Positions 3,501-10,245 are shown, counted from the stretch's first letter. The stretch: DNA of 39,382 bases from a virus (IMGVR_UViG_2923296884_000001), one strand, 5' to 3'. The notes: generated by a model from the sequence alone, not told the origin. Numbers and translations: made by a program.

Positions 3501-4685
3501 ATGAGTGAAACTCGTTTTCATGGTGCCCGTGTTACGGAAAGTACCGACCTGGTAACAGCGATTAACGATGTTGATTCCAGCGTTATCGGTATCGTGGCAA
3601 CGGCGGATGATGCGGACGCGAAGCTGTTCCCGCTGAACAAGCCCACACTGCTGACCCGCGTCAATGACGTGCTGGGAAAATGCGGGACAACGGGGACGCT
3701 TTATCGTGCGCTTAAGGCCATCGCAGACCAGGTGAGCACAAAGGTGATCGTCGTTCGCGTGGCTGAACACAAAGAAGAAAACGGAAAGACGCAGGATCAA
3801 CTGGTTATCGGTGGTTCTGAATCTGACGGCAGCTATACGGGGATGTATGCGCTGCTTGTTGCAGAGCAGGATGAAAGCATCGGATACCGTCCGCGTATTC
3901 TGGCCGCGCCGGAGCTGGACACGGAGGCGGTGACAAAATCCCTGTGCGTGATTGCGGGTAAAGTGCGCGCGTTTGTGTATGCCACATGTCATGGTTGTAA
4001 CACGATGGCTGAGGCGATTACCTACCGCCAGAAATTCAACGAACGTGAGGTGATGCTCTTATGGCCTGACTTCATCGCCTACAACCCGAAAAGTGGCAAA
4101 AACGAAACGTTCCCCGCGCCTGCTTATGCGTGCGGCCTTCGTGCGTACATTGACCATGAGCAGGGCTGGCACAAATCGCTGTCCAACGTTCCGGTTAAAA
4201 ATGTGCTGGGGATGTCCAGGCATGTGTTCTGGTCGTTACAGGCCGAAGACAGTGATGCCAACAGCCTCAACAACAAAGAAATCACGACCATTATTCGTCG
4301 TAACGGGTTCCGCTTCTGGGGCAACCGCACACCGGAAACGAACGCCTACATCTTTGAGGTGTATACCCGAACCGCACAGGTGCTGGCTGATTCAATTGCG
4401 GAAGCGCAGTTTGAAACCATCGACAGTCCACTGACACCTGCGAACGTGAAGGATGTTATCAGCGCCATCAGAGCAAAACTGGATTCGCTGGTTACTGTCG
4501 GGAAACTGATTGGTGCGGAGTGCTGGTATGACGTGGTGGATAACAGCACCACGGGTTTACGTCAGGGGCGTGTGCGTATTCGCTACAAATATACGCCTGT
4601 TCCCCCGCTGGAAGACATGGAGCTTTACCAGTCGTTTACTGATGAATTCTTTGGTCCCGCATTTGCGGTGCTGGGAGGTGCCTGA
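3501..4685 (+). CDS. FI: tail sheath protein
   Basis: 394-aa ORF with sheath-protein features and P2 gpFI similarity; followed by the tube gene with ATGA overlap. Confidence 0.93.
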   Translation: MSETRFHGARVTESTDLVTAINDVDSSVIGIVATADDADAKLFPLNKPTLLTRVNDVLGKCGTTGTLYRALKAIADQVSTKVIVVRVAEHKEENGKTQDQLVIGGSESDGSYTGMYALLVAEQDESIGYRPRILAAPELDTEAVTKSLCVIAGKVRAFVYATCHGCNTMAEAITYRQKFNEREVMLLWPDFIAYNPKSGKNETFPAPAYACGLRAYIDHEQGWHKSLSNVPVKNVLGMSRHVFWSLQAEDSDANSLNNKEITTIIRRNGFRFWGNRTPETNAYIFEVYTRTAQVLADSIAEAQFETIDSPLTPANVKDVISAIRAKLDSLVTVGKLIGAECWYDVVDNSTTGLRQGRVRIRYKYTPVPPLEDMELYQSFTDEFFGPAFAVLGGA

Positions 4686-5197
4686 TGGCTGTACCAAAAC
4701 ATCTTCGCTTTTTTACGTTGTTTGTGGATGGTGAAAACGAAGTGGGTAAAGTGACATCCGTCACGCCACCCAAACTGACGCGCAAAACCGACAGCTATCG
4801 TGGTGGTGGCATGATGGGGGCGGTAAGTATTGATCTCGGTCTGGACGACTCCGCGCTTGATGCGAGTTTTGTCATGGGGGGAGCTGTTCGTGCGCTGTTC
4901 CTTAAATATGGCGGCACGATTGACGGCACGCTGCTGCGTTTTGCGGGTGAATACTACACCGATGCAGAAAGCGATCTGTATGAAATCGAGATGCGCGGGC
5001 GTGTGACGGAAATTGATATGGGGGAGGCCAAACAGGGCGAAGCCACATCACACACTTACGCTGTCAAAAACACCTACTACAAGCTGAGCGTTAACGATCG
5101 CCCGCTGTGGGAAATCGACCTGTTGAACCACATCTACCGGAAGGACGGCAAGGACATTGTGCCTGACCGCATTCGTTCCGCGCTTGGGCTTGGCTGA
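4685..5197 (+). CDS. FII: tail tube protein
   Basis: 170-aa ORF matching P2 gpFII, in the conserved position after the sheath gene. Confidence 0.93.
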   Translation: MAVPKHLRFFTLFVDGENEVGKVTSVTPPKLTRKTDSYRGGGMMGAVSIDLGLDDSALDASFVMGGAVRALFLKYGGTIDGTLLRFAGEYYTDAESDLYEIEMRGRVTEIDMGEAKQGEATSHTYAVKNTYYKLSVNDRPLWEIDLLNHIYRKDGKDIVPDRIRSALGLG

Positions 5198-5252: not shown

Positions 5253-5627
5253 ATGAAAGATATCGATACTGAAACCCGGAATAACACCGTAGCGGATGAT
5301 GTGACGGCAGGTGAGGATATGGCTGTCGAACGTGGTGTAAAACTTTCCCGGCCAATTGAGCGTGGTGGCGAAAAAATCACATATGTGGAGATCACCGGGG
5401 CTATTGAGCAGGCGGGATCCCTGCGTGGTCTGTCGCTGTCTGATGTGCTGAATCTGAAAGCGGATACCATGTTCACGCTGTTGCCTCGCGTGACCTCGCC
5501 ACGACTGGATGAAGTGATGATTAAAAAAATGTCGTCACGCGATTTTATTCGGTTGTGCGCTGTGGCTGTAAATTTTATGAGCGAGCCAGACTCTGGCGCG
5601 AAGAGCGTGCAGGAGACGGCAGCGTAA
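5253..5627 (+). CDS. E: tail assembly chaperone E
   Basis: 124-aa ORF in the conserved position between tube and tape-measure genes, with an overlapping -1 frame ORF as in P2 E/E'. Confidence 0.85.
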   Translation: MKDIDTETRNNTVADDVTAGEDMAVERGVKLSRPIERGGEKITYVEITGAIEQAGSLRGLSLSDVLNLKADTMFTLLPRVTSPRLDEVMIKKMSSRDFIRLCAVAVNFMSEPDSGAKSVQETAA

Positions 5628-5791
5628 TCACCCTGGTGTGCTTTGAGCACATCGAAGATCTGGTGGCGGATATTGCCGCCATTTTTAACTGGTCGCCCGC
5701 CGAAATCTTCATGATGACGCCCGGCGAAGTGGTTAGCTGGCGTGAGCGGGCGGCACTTCGCAGCGGGAATGCAGATAATGAAGACTCTTGA
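5555..5791 (+). CDS. E': E' extension (-1 frame) of the E+E' frameshift product; true junction lies upstream, about 5525-5555
   Basis: -1 frame ORF overlapping the 3' end of E and the 5' end of T; an A7 run at 5523-5529 sits where the -1 frame opens (stop at 5522-5524 in that frame). Confidence 0.65.
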   Translation: MRCGCKFYERARLWREERAGDGSVITLVCFEHIEDLVADIAAIFNWSPAEIFMMTPGEVVSWRERAALRSGNADNEDS

Positions 5792-8585
5792 CATCCGGGT
5801 CGCTTTCAGCGCCGTTGACAGGCTGACCCGGCCTGCCGAAAACGCCCGCCGCCTGATGGGGCAGTTTGGTGACTCCATCCAGCGAACGCAGGGGGCGATC
5901 AAAAATCTCGAGCGTCAGGCGCGTTCATTTGAGCGCGCCCGTGACGCTGTCAGTAAAGCGGATGCGGGTATCGTGAAAGCACGACGCCAGCTTAACGCCC
6001 TTAATCAGTTACAACGCACGGGTACAGTGCTCAGCGAAAAACAACAAAAGCTGATGCAGCAGTTAAGCACCCGGCTTGAACGCCTGAATGAATCGCGCAC
6101 ACGGGAAATTCAGAAAATGCGGGAACTTGGCGGAGAGCTGAAACGCCACGGCATTTCCCTGACAGGCAGCGATAACACCATCCAGCAGGCCATCAGACGC
6201 ACCGAACAGTACAACAACCAGCTTGAACGCGAACGGCAGGCGCTTGCGCGTGTAACGCGGGCGCGTGAGCGGTATTCGCGCGCGCAGGAAACCGCGGGAA
6301 AACTGAAAACAGGTGGTGCGCTGGCAATTGGTGCTGCAGCGGCTGGCGGCTATGCTGCCGGGCGTTTTTTGCAGCCTGCGATCGGGTTCGGCAAAGAGAT
6401 GTCCCGCGTTCAGGCACTGACGCGAATCGACAAAAACAGCCCGCAGTTTAAGGCGCTGCGTGAGCAGGCGTTAAAACTTGGTTCTGAAACACAGTTTACT
6501 GCGAGTGATGCCGCCAGTGGGCAGAGCTTTCTGGCAATGGCTGGTTTTACTCCGCAGGCCATTCAGGCCGCATTGCCCGGTGTTCTTAATATGGCGCTGG
6601 CAGGTGGCGTCGAACTCGGCGAGACGGCTGATATAGGCTCCAATATCCTCACACAGTTCAACCTGACAGCCGATCAAATGGACCGGGTTGGCGATACGCT
6701 GACAGCAGCATTCACCCGGACCAATACTGATTTACGCGCGCTGGGCGAAACCATGAAGTATACCGGTCCGGTTGCCGCAAAACTTGGTATCAGTCTTGAA
6801 GAAGCGGCGGCCATGGCCGGGATGCTTGCCAATAATGGTCTTCGCGGAAGCGATGCTGGTACGGCCATGCGCGCAAGTCTGTCCCGCCTTGCATCACCGC
6901 CAAAAGCTGCGGCTGATGCACTGAAAGAGCTGGGGGTGTCAGTTGCTGACGCCAGAGGCAAAATGCGCCCGATGGAGGATGTGCTGCTTGATCTCTATAA
7001 GGCGACACAAAAATACGGACAGGTGGACCAGGTTTCCTTCTTCAAGGACATCGCCGGAGAAGAGGCGTTCGTTGGTTTACAGACGCTTGTTGCGGCGGCT
7101 GGTTCAGGAGAGCTGCAAAAACTGACCAGAGAATTGCAGGGGGCAAGGGGAGAGGCCGATCGCGTTGCAAAAGTAATGGCCGATAATCTTGATGGGGACC
7201 TGAAAAATCTCGACAGCGCATGGGAAGGTCTTCGTATTCGCATCAGTGATCTGGTTGACGGTCCGCTGCGTTCTGTCACGCAGTGGCTCACGCGGGTGCT
7301 TGAAAAAATCACCTCGCTGGCGCAGGCCCATCCGGTACTGACGCGCCAGCTACTGATAGCAGGCGGTGCGTTGCTGGCAATGACTGCAACGATTGGCTCG
7401 TTGTCGCTGGTTATTGGGGTGCTTTACGGAAAGCTGGCCACCCTGCGTCTTGGTTTTGACATTCTTACCCGGTCAATGAATGTCGTCCGGGTGTTGCCTG
7501 CGCTGTGGGGAATGCTGACGGGTTCTGTTTCTTTGCTGGGAGGCGCTATCGGGGCGCTGTTCAGTCCGGTTGGATTGATTGCTGCTGCGTTTGTGGCTGC
7601 GGCGGTTCTCATCTGGAAATACTGGGAACCCATTAAGGCGTTTTATGCCGGGGTGTTCAACGGGATTATGGAAAGGCTGACCCCGTTGCGCGAAACCTTT
7701 GAACGGTTTGGTCCTGTTTTTGACGCAATCGGAAGCGGGATCAGCCAGGTGTTTAACTGGTTTAAATCGCTGCTGTCACCGATGGAGTCCAGCAAGGAAA
7801 CGCTGGATAAATGTACCAGTGCTGGCGAGATATTCGGTAACGTTCTTGGTGGCGCGTTACAGCTTGTTCTGACGCCTGCAAAAATGTTGCTGGATACGCT
7901 GGCGTGGATACTTGAAAAACTCGGTGTTCTTCCGGATGAAGCGGAAAGGGCGAGAAAGAAAATCGAAGACGCACAGCGTGCGGCCATTCTTCAGGACAAG
8001 GTTACCTTGCTTCAGGGGGACCTGGCGAAAATCAATCCGCCGAAGCCTGTGGAAAATGGCAATGGCACCGGAGGTGATAACCCCAAAGACAATAAACCGC
8101 TCACAGACAGCAATACCGGGACGCTGCGCAGACTCAGCAAAATTGCTGATAACACAGGTAAGCTGGTTGAGGAGACGAAAAAACGCATTGGCCCCGGCGA
8201 TATTGTCTTTAAAAACCTGCCCCGAGCACTTGCTGTTCGTGGGGAGTGGCAGGAGCGGAAGATTGCGCAGGTCAGTAAGCCTGCCCCCGCAATTAATATC
8301 ACACCCGTGGTCCCGGCTCCGCTGCCTCCGGCGCTGGTCCCTGTTGTTGCGGCCAGCTCCCGCCCGGTGGCGGAGGCCATACGATCTCCAGTGGCATCAG
8401 TTCCTGTAACTTCCCGTAACCGGGAGCCTGTTGCCTCCGGATTTGGTGGTGAAATTCATGTTCATCTGCATAACGTTGTTACGCAGAATCCCCGCGAACT
8501 GGCGAAACTGGTCGGTGAAATGGTCAGGGCAGAAATGGAACGGCGTGCCCGTGCCGGGCGTGGCAGTTTTTACGATAAAGATTGA
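5769..8585 (+). CDS. T: tail tape-measure protein
   Basis: About 940-aa ORF with coiled-coil N-terminal half, Gly/Ala-rich hydrophobic segments and a Pro-rich C-terminus, in the P2 gpT position; start (5742, 5769 or 5778) overlaps E'. Confidence 0.9.
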   Translation: MQIMKTLDIRVAFSAVDRLTRPAENARRLMGQFGDSIQRTQGAIKNLERQARSFERARDAVSKADAGIVKARRQLNALNQLQRTGTVLSEKQQKLMQQLSTRLERLNESRTREIQKMRELGGELKRHGISLTGSDNTIQQAIRRTEQYNNQLERERQALARVTRARERYSRAQETAGKLKTGGALAIGAAAAGGYAAGRFLQPAIGFGKEMSRVQALTRIDKNSPQFKALREQALKLGSETQFTASDAASGQSFLAMAGFTPQAIQAALPGVLNMALAGGVELGETADIGSNILTQFNLTADQMDRVGDTLTAAFTRTNTDLRALGETMKYTGPVAAKLGISLEEAAAMAGMLANNGLRGSDAGTAMRASLSRLASPPKAAADALKELGVSVADARGKMRPMEDVLLDLYKATQKYGQVDQVSFFKDIAGEEAFVGLQTLVAAAGSGELQKLTRELQGARGEADRVAKVMADNLDGDLKNLDSAWEGLRIRISDLVDGPLRSVTQWLTRVLEKITSLAQAHPVLTRQLLIAGGALLAMTATIGSLSLVIGVLYGKLATLRLGFDILTRSMNVVRVLPALWGMLTGSVSLLGGAIGALFSPVGLIAAAFVAAAVLIWKYWEPIKAFYAGVFNGIMERLTPLRETFERFGPVFDAIGSGISQVFNWFKSLLSPMESSKETLDKCTSAGEIFGNVLGGALQLVLTPAKMLLDTLAWILEKLGVLPDEAERARKKIEDAQRAAILQDKVTLLQGDLAKINPPKPVENGNGTGGDNPKDNKPLTDSNTGTLRRLSKIADNTGKLVEETKKRIGPGDIVFKNLPRALAVRGEWQERKIAQVSKPAPAINITPVVPAPLPPALVPVVAASSRPVAEAIRSPVASVPVTSRNREPVASGFGGEIHVHLHNVVTQNPRELAKLVGEMVRAEMERRARAGRGSFYDKD

Positions 8586-8591
8586 GGAGTC

Positions 8592-9086
8592 ATGGCCATG
8601 ATGATGATCTATGGCATGTTTGTTTTTGAGCTGCGCACATTGCCGCATCAGCAGTTACAGCAAAACAAAAGCTGGCGGCATGTGAAAAATGAACGCGTTA
8701 ATCGTTCAGCAAGCTGGCAGTATATCGGCGCAGGTGATGATCGCATCGTGCTTTCCGGCGTGCTTTATCCTGAAATTACAGGTGGCGAAGTGTCGCTTTC
8801 GTTGCTGACCACGCAGGCATATACAGGACGCCCCTGGCCTCTGATTGATGGTGTCGGGCAGATTTACGGCATGTATGTACTGACTGAAACGAATACGACC
8901 CGTTCCGAGTTTGATCGCTACGGTAAGGCGAAAAAGATAGAATTTTCACTGACTCTTGAACGCTGTGATGAGGATTTGCGGGAGCGCCTGCAATCCTCAT
9001 CGTTCAGTGATATGCTGTCCGGCTTCAAAGATAAGGTCACATCATCCCTTAACAGCGCGGCCAGCTCCGTTAAAGGGCTGTTTTGA
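8592..9086 (+). CDS. U: tail protein U
   Basis: 164-aa ORF immediately after T with similarity to P2 gpU (MFVFELRTLPHQ... vs P2 MFVFMRQTLPHQ...). Confidence 0.9.
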   Translation: MAMMMIYGMFVFELRTLPHQQLQQNKSWRHVKNERVNRSASWQYIGAGDDRIVLSGVLYPEITGGEVSLSLLTTQAYTGRPWPLIDGVGQIYGMYVLTETNTTRSEFDRYGKAKKIEFSLTLERCDEDLRERLQSSSFSDMLSGFKDKVTSSLNSAASSVKGLF

Positions 9087-9093
9087 TTAACGC

Positions 9094-9123
9094 AAAACCG
9101 CTAATGGTCAGATTAGCGGTTTT
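9094..9123. terminator. palindromic hairpin between convergent U and invertase genes (bidirectional terminator candidate)
   Basis: AAAACCGCTAAT-ggtcag-ATTAGCGGTTTT perfect 12-bp inverted repeat, A-run on one side and T-run on the other; overlaps the invertase stop codon. Confidence 0.5.
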
Positions 9124-9712
9124 CATTTTCCTGAGTCTGCCTGGTTGTTTCTTCAGCCTGTATATCGCCTACAGGGTGATAACGATAAATCGTCGATATG
9201 CCGATGTCGTAAATGATCGCCAGTTGTTTCCTGTCATGACCGTTTTTAATCAGCCTCGCTATTTGCTCGTGTTGTTCTTTTGTCAACTTCGGGCGACGTC
9301 CGCCAATGCGTCCTTGTGCGCGTGCTGCTGCCAGCCCGGCCAGTGTACGCTCTACAATTAATTCACGTTCCATTTCGGCTAAAGCCCCCATGACGTGAAA
9401 AAAGAAACGCCCCATGGGTGTTGATGTGTCAATGCTGTCCGTCAGACTACGGAAATTAACACCTTTTTCCCGCAATTCCTCAATAAGCGTGATCAGGTGT
9501 TTCATACTTCTGCCCAGTCTGTCCAGCTTCCAGACAACCAGCGTATCTCCTTCTGATAGCGTTCTGAGCAGTTTTTTCAATCCCGGTCTGGTTGATTTCG
9601 TTCCGCTGATTTTATCTTCAAAAATCAGTTCACATCCTGCGCAGTTCAGTGCATTGCGTTGTAAATCCGTGTTCTGGTCGTTTGTTGACACACGAATATA
9701 GCCAATTTGCAT
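9113..9712 (-). CDS. serine-recombinase DNA invertase (Hin/Gin/Cin/Pin family)
   Basis: Translation from the ATG at 9712, MQIGYIRVSTNDQNTDLQRNAL..., carries the catalytic serine (GYIRVSTNDQ) and a C-terminal HTH; lies right next to an inverted-repeat-flanked tail-fibre segment. Confidence 0.93.
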   Translation of the reverse strand: MQIGYIRVSTNDQNTDLQRNALNCAGCELIFEDKISGTKSTRPGLKKLLRTLSEGDTLVVWKLDRLGRSMKHLITLIEELREKGVNFRSLTDSIDTSTPMGRFFFHVMGALAEMERELIVERTLAGLAAARAQGRIGGRRPKLTKEQHEQIARLIKNGHDRKQLAIIYDIGISTIYRYHPVGDIQAEETTRQTQENENR

Positions 9713-9726
9713 AAAAAACATCCTCT

Positions 9727-10245
9727 TTGTTTCGTGAAAAATACAGAGTTGGTATAGGTAGGGATAAAAACGAAAACGTTGGTTTAGGAGAAGGCTCGGC
9801 GCTACCCGTTGGTGTGCCTGTTCCGTGGCCCACTGCCACACCGCCAGCAGGCTGGTTACAGTGCAACGGAGCTACGTTCACCAAAGAACAATATCCTGTT
9901 CTGGCCAGAGTCTACCCGACCCTCCGTCTTCCCGATTTGCGCGGTGAGTTTATCCGTGGATGGGACGGTGGTCGCAAGGTTGATACCGGGCGTACGGTAC
10001 TTTCATTTCAGGAAGGGACTATCGTATCCGGTTTTGATGATAATAATACCGGAGATATCAGTTCGCTCGGCTCTACACAATACGGATTTGGTGACGCTTT
10101 AACCTCTAATCAACTGGGGGTCATAAATGGCAAAAAGTGGATATTTGATGCATCCTCTAAAGGTGCACAAAGATATGACTGGTGGGCTTATGTATCAGCT
10201 CGCCCCCGCAATATCGCATTTAACTATATCGTGAGGGCGGCGTGA
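9727..10245 (+). CDS. alternative tail-fibre C-terminal cassette (Hv'), promoterless in the current orientation
   Basis: Opens inside the left inverted repeat with no plausible start of its own (ORF-track start is a TTG); ends ...RPRNIAFNYIVRAA, matching the conserved P2-type fibre C-terminus. Confidence 0.8.
   Translation: MFREKYRVGIGRDKNENVGLGEGSALPVGVPVPWPTATPPAGWLQCNGATFTKEQYPVLARVYPTLRLPDLRGEFIRGWDGGRKVDTGRTVLSFQEGTIVSGFDDNNTGDISSLGSTQYGFGDALTSNQLGVINGKKWIFDASSKGAQRYDWWAYVSARPRNIAFNYIVRAA
9765..9790. other. gix/hix-like crossover site (left)
   Basis: Reverse complement TTCTCCTAAACCAACGTTTTCGTTTT shares its first 17 nt with the right-hand site; resembles the 26-bp gix architecture with AAACC half-sites. 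Confidence 0.5.

What the first reader, a model, noticed from the sequence alone, without database searches (positions are those of the whole stretch)
5520..5560. E/E' overlap with an A7 run at the point where the -1 frame opens
The -1 frame needed for the E+E' product is closed by a stop at 5522-5524 and opens immediately after. The only homopolymeric slippery candidate nearby is AAAAAAA at 5523-5529, which does not form a textbook X-XXY-YYZ heptamer in the E frame. The exact shift site is therefore unclear.
Basis: seen in the sequence. Interest (0 to 1): 0.3.

Follow-up and report, generated by a model that had tools for sequence, protein, structure and literature searches.

The report
Phage tail-chaperone frameshift site, relocated heptamer

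Summary
A -1-frame TAA lies at 5522-5524, an A7 run lies at 5523-5529, and the E frame reads ATT AAA AAA ATG.

Its Phe codon (5574-5576) is the homologue of the Phe codon in P2's mapped T_TTT_TTG site.

- **Family survey:** in 141 unique related E/E' loci, this Phe codon always lies in a canonical heptamer. Across the family, -1-frame stops and E stops confine the shift to about 10 nt around it.
- **A7 in the sister clade:** the P88 clade has the same A7, coding Lys-Lys-Met, but closes the -1 frame 17 nt downstream.
- **Selection:** between the window and P88, purifying selection switches from frame 0 to frame -1 at the heptamer, not at the A run.
- **Domain boundary:** the chaperone domain (Pfam Phage_TAC_7) ends exactly at the heptamer junction, and its match is lost with an A-run junction.

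The window clade changed TTG to ATG, which destroyed T6G and left the overlapping upstream heptamer. A Klebsiella-phage clade did the same with C_CCT_TTC. A clade-specific hairpin 8 nt downstream is a possible but unproven stimulator.

Verdict: a known mechanism and a new family member with a shifted slip heptamer. Low interest.

The parts
5253..5627 (+). E-like tail assembly chaperone gene (124 aa), frame 0
   Evidence: ORF. PHROG 103 'tail protein' at 5.6e-36. Pfam Phage_TAC_7 at 23.1 bits, just under the cutoff of 25. The predicted E+E' aligns colinearly with P2 E+E' at E=1e-28. The gene lies between the tube gene (4685-5197) and the tape-measure gene.
5570..5576 (+). Slippery heptamer A_AAT_TTT, the proposed -1 shift site. 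P-site AAU (Asn107) re-pairs to AAA, and A-site UUU (Phe108) re-pairs to UUU.
   Evidence: It is the only canonical X_XXY_YYZ heptamer in the E frame within the overlap. Its Phe codon is invariant in the family and homologous to the Phe of P2's T_TTT_TTG. Codon constraint switches frames here. The motif belongs to the efficient H_HH.U_UU.Y class in E. coli (PMC4066793).
5576..5791 (+). E' part of the E+E' product, read in the -1 frame from TAT 5576-5578 to TGA 5789-5791. The predicted junction is ...AVAVNF|YERARLW..., giving 179 aa in total.
   Evidence: The -1 frame is open 5525-5788. Pfam Phage_P2_GpE scores 46.3 bits against a cutoff of 23. Substitutions against P88 are 6 synonymous and 3 non-synonymous in frame -1 for 5577-5624, and 5 and 3 for 5628-5788.
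5522..5524 (+). TAA, the last stop in the -1 frame before E'
   Evidence: It is formed by ATT|AAA of the Ile-Lys codons.
5523..5529 (+). A7 run (Lys-Lys codons plus the A of ATG). It is not the programmed shift site but is a hot spot for homopolymer length variation.
   Evidence: The same A7 is present in the P88 clade, where the -1 frame closes 17 nt later. It is absent (AAG CGC) in the next outgroup. Between the A run and the heptamer, frame -1 shows 1 synonymous and 10 non-synonymous changes. A8 alleles occur only in draft assemblies and at 0 of 617 and 0 of 641 places in finished genomes.
5585..5620 (+). Candidate stimulatory hairpin (13 bp, interrupted, loop AAGAG) starting 8 nt after the heptamer. 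Unproven.
   Evidence: The energy is -15.2 kcal/mol with z = -2.1, and 6 of 200 dinucleotide shuffles fold as well. As a 45-nt segment it is -16.7 kcal/mol with z = -1.56. The same stretch in P88 folds at -5.9 kcal/mol with z = +1.87. The sequence is invariant in the 14 unique clade members, so covariation cannot be tested.
5636..5791 (+). ORF annotated separately in RefSeq/PGAP as 'GpE family phage tail protein' (51 aa). It is really the 3' part of E+E'.
   Evidence: No ribosomal slippage is annotated in any Xuanwuvirus record examined.
5778..8585 (+). Tape-measure gene T. Its start overlaps the end of E'.
   Evidence: Pfam PhageMin_Tail at 1.6e-56.
4685..5197 (+). Tail tube gene (FII-like), context
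   Evidence: Pfam Phage_tube at 2.1e-45.

Best explanation
The window is a Xuanwuvirus (P88-like, Peduoviridae) prophage of E. coli. Gene E (5253-5627) encodes the tail assembly chaperone. A minority of ribosomes translating E slip back one base on A_AAU_UUU (5570-5576). The P-site tRNA-Asn re-pairs from AAU to AAA, and the A-site tRNA-Phe re-pairs from UUU to UUU. The next codon read is UAU (5576-5578), and translation continues in the -1 frame to TGA 5789-5791. The result is a 179-aa E+E' protein with the junction ...LCAVAVNF|YERARLW....

This is the same recoding event as P2 E/E+E', moved one codon upstream. In P2 the conserved Phe codon sits in the P site of T_TTT_TTG. In this clade TTG became ATG (Leu to Met), which destroyed T6G, and the Phe codon now sits in the A site of the overlapping heptamer already present in the sister P88 clade (A_AAT_TTT_TTG). 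The A7 run at 5523-5529 is simply Lys-Lys-Met coding sequence.

Shown here: the gene identities, the frames, the heptamer, its homology to the P2 site, the family-wide pinning of the site, and the frame switch in selection. Inferred: that slippage is tandem, its efficiency, that the hairpin 5585-5620 stimulates it, and the role of E/E+E' (by analogy with lambda gpG/gpGT, binding the tape measure and recruiting the tube protein).
For: 1. A_AAT_TTT at 5570-5576 is the only canonical in-frame heptamer in the 100-nt overlap.

2. The P2 record marks its -1 site at T_TTT_TTG (PMC3091744). In protein alignments the P2 Phe aligns with window F108, which is an invariant column.

3. Of 141 unique E/E' regions from 160 fetched loci, 108 have T_TTT_TTN at this Phe codon, 19 have C_CCT_TTC TTG and 14 have A_AAT_TTT ATG. 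All 141 therefore place the Phe codon in a canonical heptamer.

4. Across these loci the -1 frame opens 238 to 1 nt before the Phe codon, and the E stop begins 9 to 84 nt after the first base of that codon. The only region common to all loci is about 10 nt at this codon.

5. The P88 clade has the identical A7 but a -1 stop 17 nt downstream. L115 and L116 have no A run and carry a -1 TAA abutting T_TTT_TTG.

6. Window versus P88 substitutions:
- 5529-5569: frame 0 has 7 synonymous and 3 non-synonymous changes; frame -1 has 1 and 10.
- 5577-5624: frame 0 has 1 and 8; frame -1 has 6 and 3.

7. Pfam Phage_TAC_7 covers residues 29-108 of the heptamer-junction fusion (profile positions 2-77 of 79), just as it covers 7-85 (2-78 of 79) of P2 E+E'. 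The match disappears with an A-run junction.

8. In E. coli reporters, AAAUUUU gives 0.070 / 0.355 / 11.4 % frameshifting (no stimulator / IS911 stimulators / IS3 pseudoknot). P2-type UUUUUUG gives 0.118 / 0.247 / 0.765 %. H_HH.U_UU.Y is listed among the best E. coli motifs (PMC4066793).

9. The variant is stable and common. It is present in 577 of 5426 finished E. coli genomes and in deposited phage genome records such as Shae_phiSM and P88_4B11.
Against: There is no experimental evidence for this clade: no protein data and no reporter assay. Without a stimulator, AAAUUUU is barely above background in the reporter study (0.070% against 0.055 +/- 0.031%), so a stimulator may be needed. The only candidate, the hairpin at 5585-5620, is statistically marginal (z between -1.6 and -2.1), and a 64-nt fold gave z = 0.06. 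Within this clade itself, -1-frame stops do not exclude the A run, since the frame is open from 5525. The exclusion therefore rests on homology, substitution pattern and domain integrity. The substitution counts are small (10-13 codons per segment) and come from one clade pair. The primary P2 mapping paper (Christie et al. 2002) could not be read here.
Confidence: 0.82

Rival explanations
1. The shift occurs at the A7 run (5523-5529). This could happen by single-tRNA-Lys -1 slippage (AAA 5526-5528 to 5525-5527), or by RNA-polymerase slippage adding one A to the mRNA. Either route gives ...MIKK|NVVTRFYSVVRCGCKFYERARLW...E'.
For: The -1 frame is open from 5525, so the product would reach E'. A runs are known slippage sites, and AAAAAAA is strongly avoided in E. 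coli genes in all phases (PMC4066793). A8 alleles encoding exactly this fusion exist in draft assemblies, which shows the run is length-unstable.
Against: In-phase the motif is T_AAA_AAA, so the P-site tRNA would have to re-pair on UAA. It reduces to the A_AAA tetramer, which gives 0.125% without and 0.256% with a pseudoknot, against 0.100% and 0.059% background. The same A7 in the P88 clade is followed by a -1 stop, and the next outgroup has AAG CGC instead. Between the A run and the heptamer, frame -1 shows 1 synonymous and 10 non-synonymous changes while frame 0 shows 7 and 3. The product would replace the conserved end of the chaperone domain (invariant D97, L101, F108), and the TAC_7 match is lost. 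No downstream structure is predicted (z = +0.91). The coincidence of the frame opening here is expected by chance 58% of the time. No A8 allele was found at 617 and 641 places in finished genomes.
Confidence: 0.05
2. The site is the same but the mechanics differ. Only the P-site tRNA-Phe slips (U_UUU, 5573-5576) while the A site (AUG) is empty, rather than tandem slippage on A_AAU_UUU. The protein product is identical.
For: U_UUU is among the tetramers with measurable shiftiness in E. coli (0.139% without and 0.80% with a pseudoknot). The Phe codon is the invariant element across the family, whereas the preceding codon varies.
Against: Both clades that lost T6N retain a complete upstream X_XXT_TTY heptamer. 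Only 27 of 108 T6N-bearing unique loci have one (counted), which suggests the first three bases matter. With the IS3 pseudoknot, heptamer AAAUUUU reaches 11.4% against 0.8% for the tetramer.
Confidence: 0.12
3. E' is made as a separate small protein from its own start (GTG 5636 as annotated by PGAP, or GTG 5555), with no frameshift.
For: RefSeq/PGAP and several phage records annotate a separate 51-aa 'GpE family phage tail protein'. The ORF listing reports a GTG-started ORF at 5555-5791.
Against: In P2 the E' region is expressed only as the E+E' fusion, according to the record annotation and PMC3091744. Frame -1 is under purifying selection from the heptamer onward, upstream of GTG 5636 (6 synonymous and 3 non-synonymous changes in 5577-5624), with a conserved W..ER.GDG motif across clades there. 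The start of the open -1 frame is not conserved (1-238 nt upstream of the Phe codon). Reading the sequence, I see no Shine-Dalgarno-like sequence directly upstream of 5636.
Confidence: 0.03
4. This clade lost the programmed frameshift when TTG became ATG, and E' is a decaying remnant.
For: The P2-type T6G site is destroyed. AAAUUUU without a stimulator is near background in reporters.
Against: E' remains intact with the same length in all 14 unique clade members and is under purifying selection. The clade includes deposited phage genome records and 577 finished E. coli genomes. A canonical heptamer remains at the homologous position.
Confidence: 0.03

Closest known systems
Bacteriophage P2 E / E+E' programmed -1 translational frameshift (FETUD tail operon; Christie et al. 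2002, cited via PMC3091744 and RefSeq NC_001895)
   Same: The gene order is the same: sheath, tube, E/E', tape measure, U. Both have an E-like chaperone ORF plus a -1-frame extension carrying the Phage_P2_GpE domain. The predicted fusion aligns colinearly with P2 E+E' (33% identity, E=1e-28), with the junctions aligned. The slip involves the same conserved Phe codon.
   Different: The heptamer is A_AAT_TTT rather than T_TTT_TTG. The Phe codon is in the A site instead of the P site, so the site lies one codon upstream. E has about 30 extra N-terminal residues (124 against 91 aa). The overlap is longer (100 against 34 nt). There is a clade-specific candidate hairpin downstream, whereas none is reported for P2.
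Phage P88 and other T6G-bearing Xuanwuvirus relatives (sister clade)
   Same: DNA identity here is about 83%. The architecture is the same, the A7 Lys-Lys-Met run is the same, and the upstream A_AAT_TTT is the same.
   Different: P88 keeps TTG and so has overlapping A_AAT_TTT and T_TTT_TTG heptamers. It has a -1 stop between the A run and the heptamer. It has no downstream hairpin (z = +1.87).
Klebsiella phage ST16-OXA48phi5.4 (Reipivirus) clade
   Same: It independently lost T6N while retaining an overlapping upstream heptamer with the Phe codon in the A site (C_CCT_TTC TTG; 19 unique loci).
   Different: The heptamer differs (C_CCU_UUC, 23% with the IS3 pseudoknot in reporters). The E protein is 105 aa and the open -1 overlap is much longer (253 nt).
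Lambda gpG/gpGT and the conserved tail-assembly-chaperone frameshift of dsDNA phages (Xu, Hendrix and Duda 2004; reviewed in PMC5009743)
   Same: Two products with a common N-terminus are encoded between the major tail gene and the tape-measure gene, with a low-level -1 shift. The lambda G:GT ratio is about 30:1.
   Different: I did not test sequence similarity to lambda G/T. Lambda has a siphovirus tail and P2-like phages a contractile tail. The lambda heptamer is G_GGA_AAG (from my own knowledge).

Membership tests
P2-type E/E+E' tail assembly chaperone with programmed -1 frameshift | Located between the tail tube gene and the tape-measure gene | tested here: met
   Tube gene 4685-5197 (Phage_tube, 2.1e-45), E 5253-5627, T 5778-8585 (PhageMin_Tail, 1.6e-56), U 8592-9086.
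P2-type E/E+E' tail assembly chaperone with programmed -1 frameshift | The upstream ORF is a gpE homologue (Phage_TAC_7) | tested here: met
   BLASTP of the predicted fusion against P2 E+E' gives E=1e-28 with the E part aligned. PHROG 103 scores 5.6e-36. Caveat: Pfam TAC_7 scores 23.1 bits, just under its gathering cutoff of 25, and NCBIfam gave no hit.
P2-type E/E+E' tail assembly chaperone with programmed -1 frameshift | A -1-frame extension carrying the Phage_P2_GpE domain overlaps the 3' end of E | tested here: met
   PF06528 scores 46.3 bits against a cutoff of 23. The -1 frame is open 5525-5788, and the E stop is at 5625-5627.
P2-type E/E+E' tail assembly chaperone with programmed -1 frameshift | A canonical slippery heptamer in the E frame within the overlap, at the conserved Phe codon | tested here: met
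   A_AAT_TTT at 5570-5576. The Phe codon lies in a canonical heptamer in 141 of 141 unique relatives.
P2-type E/E+E' tail assembly chaperone with programmed -1 frameshift | The specific P2 heptamer T_TTT_TTG | tested here: not met
   The window reads AAT TTT ATG, so TTG has become ATG. This feature describes P2 itself rather than the family: 33 of 141 unique relatives lack T6N.
P2-type E/E+E' tail assembly chaperone with programmed -1 frameshift | Coding constraint passes from frame 0 to frame -1 at the slip site | tested here: met
   Upstream of the heptamer, frame 0 has 7 synonymous and 3 non-synonymous changes against 1 and 10 for frame -1. Downstream, frame -1 has 6 and 3 against 1 and 8 for frame 0.
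P2-type E/E+E' tail assembly chaperone with programmed -1 frameshift | Both E and E+E' proteins are made, and both are needed for tail assembly | not testable with these tools
   This needs a western blot, mass spectrometry or genetics.
Transcriptional (RNA polymerase) slippage at a homopolymer run | A long A/T run conserved at the junction of the two frames, with the downstream frame productive in relatives | tested here: not met
   The run is only 7 A. The run is also present in P88, where the -1 frame closes 17 nt later, and it is absent in L115 and L116. Frame -1 is not conserved between the run and the heptamer.

The most novel reading that the evidence does not exclude
This may be slip-site turnover within one gene family. 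Two clades independently lost the ancestral U_UUU_UUN site. In both, the loss occurred on a background that already carried an overlapping upstream X_XXU_UUY heptamer. In the window clade the loss coincides with a downstream hairpin that the sister clade lacks. Because X_XXU_UUY motifs are far more stimulator-responsive in E. coli than U_UUU_UUG, the upstream heptamer may also be the main operative site in 'double-site' phages such as P88 and phiT5282H. If so, the P2 model (Phe in the P site, no stimulator) would not generalise across Peduoviridae.
Probability: 0.3. Interest if true: 0.35.

Novelty: new member of a known kind. Interest (0 to 1): 0.2.

Why it matters
The main value is for annotation. 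None of the Xuanwuvirus or RefSeq records examined annotates the slippage. They split E' off as a 51-aa 'GpE family' ORF, and tools or readers looking for P2's T6G will not find it in this clade, which is present in about 11% of finished E. coli genomes. For recoding biology it is a small, clean natural example of a frameshift signal moving by one codon while the protein junction stays essentially unchanged. It also gives a testable prediction: A_AAU_UUU plus a new hairpin replaces U_UUU_UUG without one. It opens no major question.

Tried and rejected
- **P2 mapping paper:** Christie et al. 2002 could not be fetched by DOI or PMC id. I relied on the RefSeq P2 annotation and on PMC3091744.
- **NCBIfam:** no hit for E or for either fusion protein.
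- **Literature:** searches for a described Xuanwuvirus frameshift or an AAATTTT tail-chaperone site found nothing specific.
- **Wider fold:** a 64-nt fold downstream of the heptamer showed no excess structure (z = 0.06). Only the tighter 36-45-nt window gives a marginal signal.
- **Wrong coordinates:** the L115 and L119 coordinates fell in the E'/T junction rather than downstream of the slip site, so I disregard them. The correct segments were folded.
- **Upstream Shine-Dalgarno-like stimulator:** reading 5553-5564 (TTGTGCGCTGTG), I see none.
- **A8 alleles as evidence for the A run:** I considered that the A8 'fusion' proteins in the big collection might support the A run as functional. I rejected this because finished genomes, including 62 with the same haplotype, all have A7.
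- **PHROG 1756 extent:** its match begins upstream of the heptamer in the -1 ORF. I attribute this to how annotated ORFs were called (GTG 5555), not to translation of that stretch.
- **Unparsed loci:** 11 of 169 sequences lacked the search motif. With a looser motif, 8 showed T6N (7 TTTTTTG, 1 TTTTTTC), and 3 (L011, L066, L089) looked disrupted or misparsed.

Full report
**What is there.** The region is the tail module of a P2-like myovirus.
- Sheath gene at 3501-4685 (Phage_sheath_1).
- Tube gene at 4685-5197 (Phage_tube, 2.1e-45).
- A 124-aa E-like ORF at 5253-5627.
- A -1-frame ORF reaching 5791 that carries Pfam Phage_P2_GpE (46.3 bits against a cutoff of 23).
- Tape-measure gene at 5778-8585.
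- gpU at 8592-9086.

By DNA similarity the window is a Xuanwuvirus (Peduoviridae). It is 98% identical here to Citrobacter phage Shae_phiSM and to P88_4B11, and 83% identical to phage P88. It is 100% identical to prophages in E. coli strains such as U15A.

**Checking the observation.**
- The E frame reads ATT AAA AAA ATG.
- The -1 frame has TAA at 5522-5524 and is then open to TGA 5789-5791.
- The A7 run is at 5523-5529, and in-phase it is T_AAA_AAA, which is not a canonical heptamer.

The statement that this is the only slippery candidate is wrong. A mechanical scan of the E frame finds one canonical X_XXY_YYZ heptamer in the overlap, A_AAT_TTT at 5570-5576. The frame opening at the A run is not remarkable. 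TAA is simply ATT|AAA, and 58% of synonymous recodings of the 14 intervening codons leave the -1 frame open.

**Comparison with the mapped P2 site.** The P2 RefSeq record marks the -1 site at T_TTT_TTG, and PMC3091744 states the same. An alignment of predicted E+E' proteins places the P2 Phe codon on window F108 (5574-5576), which is an invariant column. BLASTP of the window fusion against P2 E+E' is colinear across the junction (E=1e-28). P88 reads GTA AAT TTT TTG, which contains both A_AAT_TTT and T_TTT_TTG. The window reads GTA AAT TTT ATG, so a single change from TTG to ATG (Leu to Met) destroyed T6G and left the overlapping upstream heptamer.

**Family-wide evidence.** I fetched 160 related loci from GTDB genomes and IMG/VR and parsed them mechanically. 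Among 141 unique E..E' regions:

| Context at the conserved Phe codon | Unique loci |
|---|---|
| T_TTT_TTN (mostly TTG) | 108 |
| C_CCT_TTC TTG (Klebsiella Reipivirus-like clade) | 19 |
| A_AAT_TTT ATG (window clade) | 14 |

Every locus therefore has this Phe codon inside a canonical heptamer. The -1 frame opens anywhere from 238 to 1 nt before the Phe codon, and the E stop begins 9 to 84 nt after the first base of that codon. The only stretch common to all loci is about 10 nt at this codon. Eight unique loci have a -1 stop directly abutting the heptamer, and one (L071) has only a 10-nt overlap.

**Why the A run is not the site.**
- The P88 clade has the identical A7 (ATC AAA AAA ATG), but its -1 frame closes 17 nt later (CGT GAC). 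The next outgroup (L115 and L116) encodes Lys-Arg as AAG CGC and has no run.
- Between the window and P88, codons 5529-5569 show 7 synonymous and 3 non-synonymous differences in frame 0, against 1 and 10 in frame -1. Directly after the heptamer (5577-5624) the pattern inverts, with frame 0 at 1 and 8 and frame -1 at 6 and 3. In 5628-5788 frame -1 shows 5 and 3. Selection therefore changes frame at the heptamer.
- With the heptamer junction, Pfam Phage_TAC_7 covers residues 29-108 (profile 2-77 of 79), matching P2 E+E' (7-85; profile 2-78 of 79). With an A-run junction the match disappears.
- The stretch after the A run shows no excess structure (z = +0.91).

**Is A_AAU_UUU a plausible site in E. 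coli?** Sharma et al. 2014 (PMC4066793) measured all 64 heptamers. UUY in the A site is more shift-prone than UUR, and H_HH.U_UU.Y is listed among the best E. coli motifs. Table S3 of that paper gives the following percentages:

| Motif | No stimulator | IS911 stimulators | IS3 pseudoknot |
|---|---|---|---|
| AAAUUUU (window) | 0.070 | 0.355 | 11.4 |
| UUUUUUG (P2 type) | 0.118 | 0.247 | 0.765 |
| CCCUUUC (Klebsiella clade) | 0.193 | 1.39 | 23.2 |

The A_AAA tetramer, which is what the A run reduces to, gives 0.125% without and 0.256% with a pseudoknot. The replacement heptamer is therefore at least as good as P2's when stimulated, but close to background when unstimulated.

**Possible stimulator.** The 36 nt at 5585-5620 can form a 13-bp interrupted hairpin starting 8 nt after the heptamer. 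Its energy is -15.2 kcal/mol with z = -2.1, and 6 of 200 dinucleotide shuffles fold as well. As a 45-nt segment it is -16.7 kcal/mol with z = -1.56. The homologous P88 stretch is unusually unstructured (-5.9 kcal/mol, z = +1.87), and by my own inspection of the alignment several of the clade differences fall on stem positions. The sequence is invariant among the 14 unique clade members, so covariation cannot be tested, and a wider 64-nt fold shows nothing. I treat this as a hypothesis only. No hairpin is reported for P2.

**Mechanism proposed.** The P-site tRNA-Asn on AAU (5571-5573) and the A-site tRNA-Phe on UUU (5574-5576) slip back one base to AAA/UUU. UAU (5576-5578) is read next, giving a 179-aa E+E' with the junction ...AVAVNF|YERARLW.... 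A single-tRNA-Phe slip on U_UUU would give the same protein and cannot be excluded. However, both clades that lost T6N keep a complete upstream heptamer, whereas only 27 of 108 T6N-bearing unique loci have one (counted), which favours tandem slippage. The function is inferred from the lambda gpG/gpGT model summarised in PMC5009743: chaperoning the tape measure and recruiting the tube protein.

**A side result on the A run.** The hypothetical A-run fusion protein exists verbatim in the large protein collection, in a 15-member cluster on several sequence backgrounds. The DNA of four such contigs has A8 instead of A7, and in three of them that is the only internal indel within the 1.7 kb compared. 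None of 617 and 641 places in finished RefSeq E. coli genomes has A8, including 62 records with the same haplotype. These are therefore homopolymer sequencing errors or rare mutants. They are called as long ORFs only because the -1 frame happens to be open.

**Verdict.** This is a known recoding system and a new member whose slip heptamer has moved one codon upstream of the P2 site. The finding is ordinary, with minor interest for annotation and for the evolution of slip sites.

Noticed in passing
window 5523-5529; loci L170-L173 (A run at about 870-877): Draft and metagenome assemblies contain A8 alleles of this run that fuse E to the -1 frame. The result is a 179-aa ORF, in a 15-member protein cluster on several sequence backgrounds. 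No finished E. coli genome has A8 (0 of 617 and 0 of 641 places), even in the same haplotype. These are probably homopolymer sequencing errors or rare inactivating mutations.
   Followed up: yes
L117 (T6), L102 (T7, run at 1773), L118 (T8, run at 1743): In a related IMG/VR clade the T run at the slip site varies in length. The T7 version puts E and E' in one ORF with the junction ...IVPFF|DAYGLW..., which is exactly the predicted frameshift product and so acts as a natural in-frame control for the junction. I did not determine whether these are real alleles or sequencing errors.
   Followed up: partly
L009 (Symbiopectobacterium MAG), L111 (IMG/VR): In L009, E and E' are fused in one frame even though the T run is T6, so an indel elsewhere is implied; this may reflect prophage decay in a symbiont. 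In L111 the E' frame runs on into the tape-measure protein (at least 581 aa).
   Followed up: no
window 5585-5620 versus L002 1868-1912: The window clade has a downstream hairpin (z about -2), while the sister P88 clade is unusually unstructured in the same stretch (z = +1.87, and all 200 shuffles fold at least as well). This coincides with the loss of T6G, but it represents only one evolutionary event.
   Followed up: partly
L006 and 18 other unique loci (Klebsiella Reipivirus-like clade): This is a second, independent clade lacking T6N. It reads C_CCT_TTC TTG, again with the Phe codon in the A site of an upstream heptamer. Its open -1 overlap is 163-253 nt (253 in most loci). A GC-rich stem (UCCGCCG/CGGCGGA) is predicted 5 nt downstream but is not significant (z about 0).
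   Followed up: partly
window 5636-5791; records NC_049391, NC_026014, OR565851, NZ_CP035720: Public annotations split E' off as a separate 51-aa 'tail protein' or 'GpE family phage tail protein', or omit it altogether, and none marks ribosomal slippage. Several RefSeq phage records label the tube protein 'head closure', and Shae_phiSM labels the sheath 'late control gene D protein'.
   Followed up: no
window 9113-9841, minus strand: A serine recombinase or invertase gene (Pfam Resolvase 2.3e-51 plus HTH_7) lies directly after gpU, where P2 has gene D. This suggests an invertible segment, or a module boundary different from P2.
   Followed up: partly
E. coli genome collection: This E/E' region occurs in 1372 of 5426 finished E. 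coli genomes. About 577-598 of them carry the window-type (ATG, no T6G) version, so the variant slip site is common and stable.
   Followed up: partly
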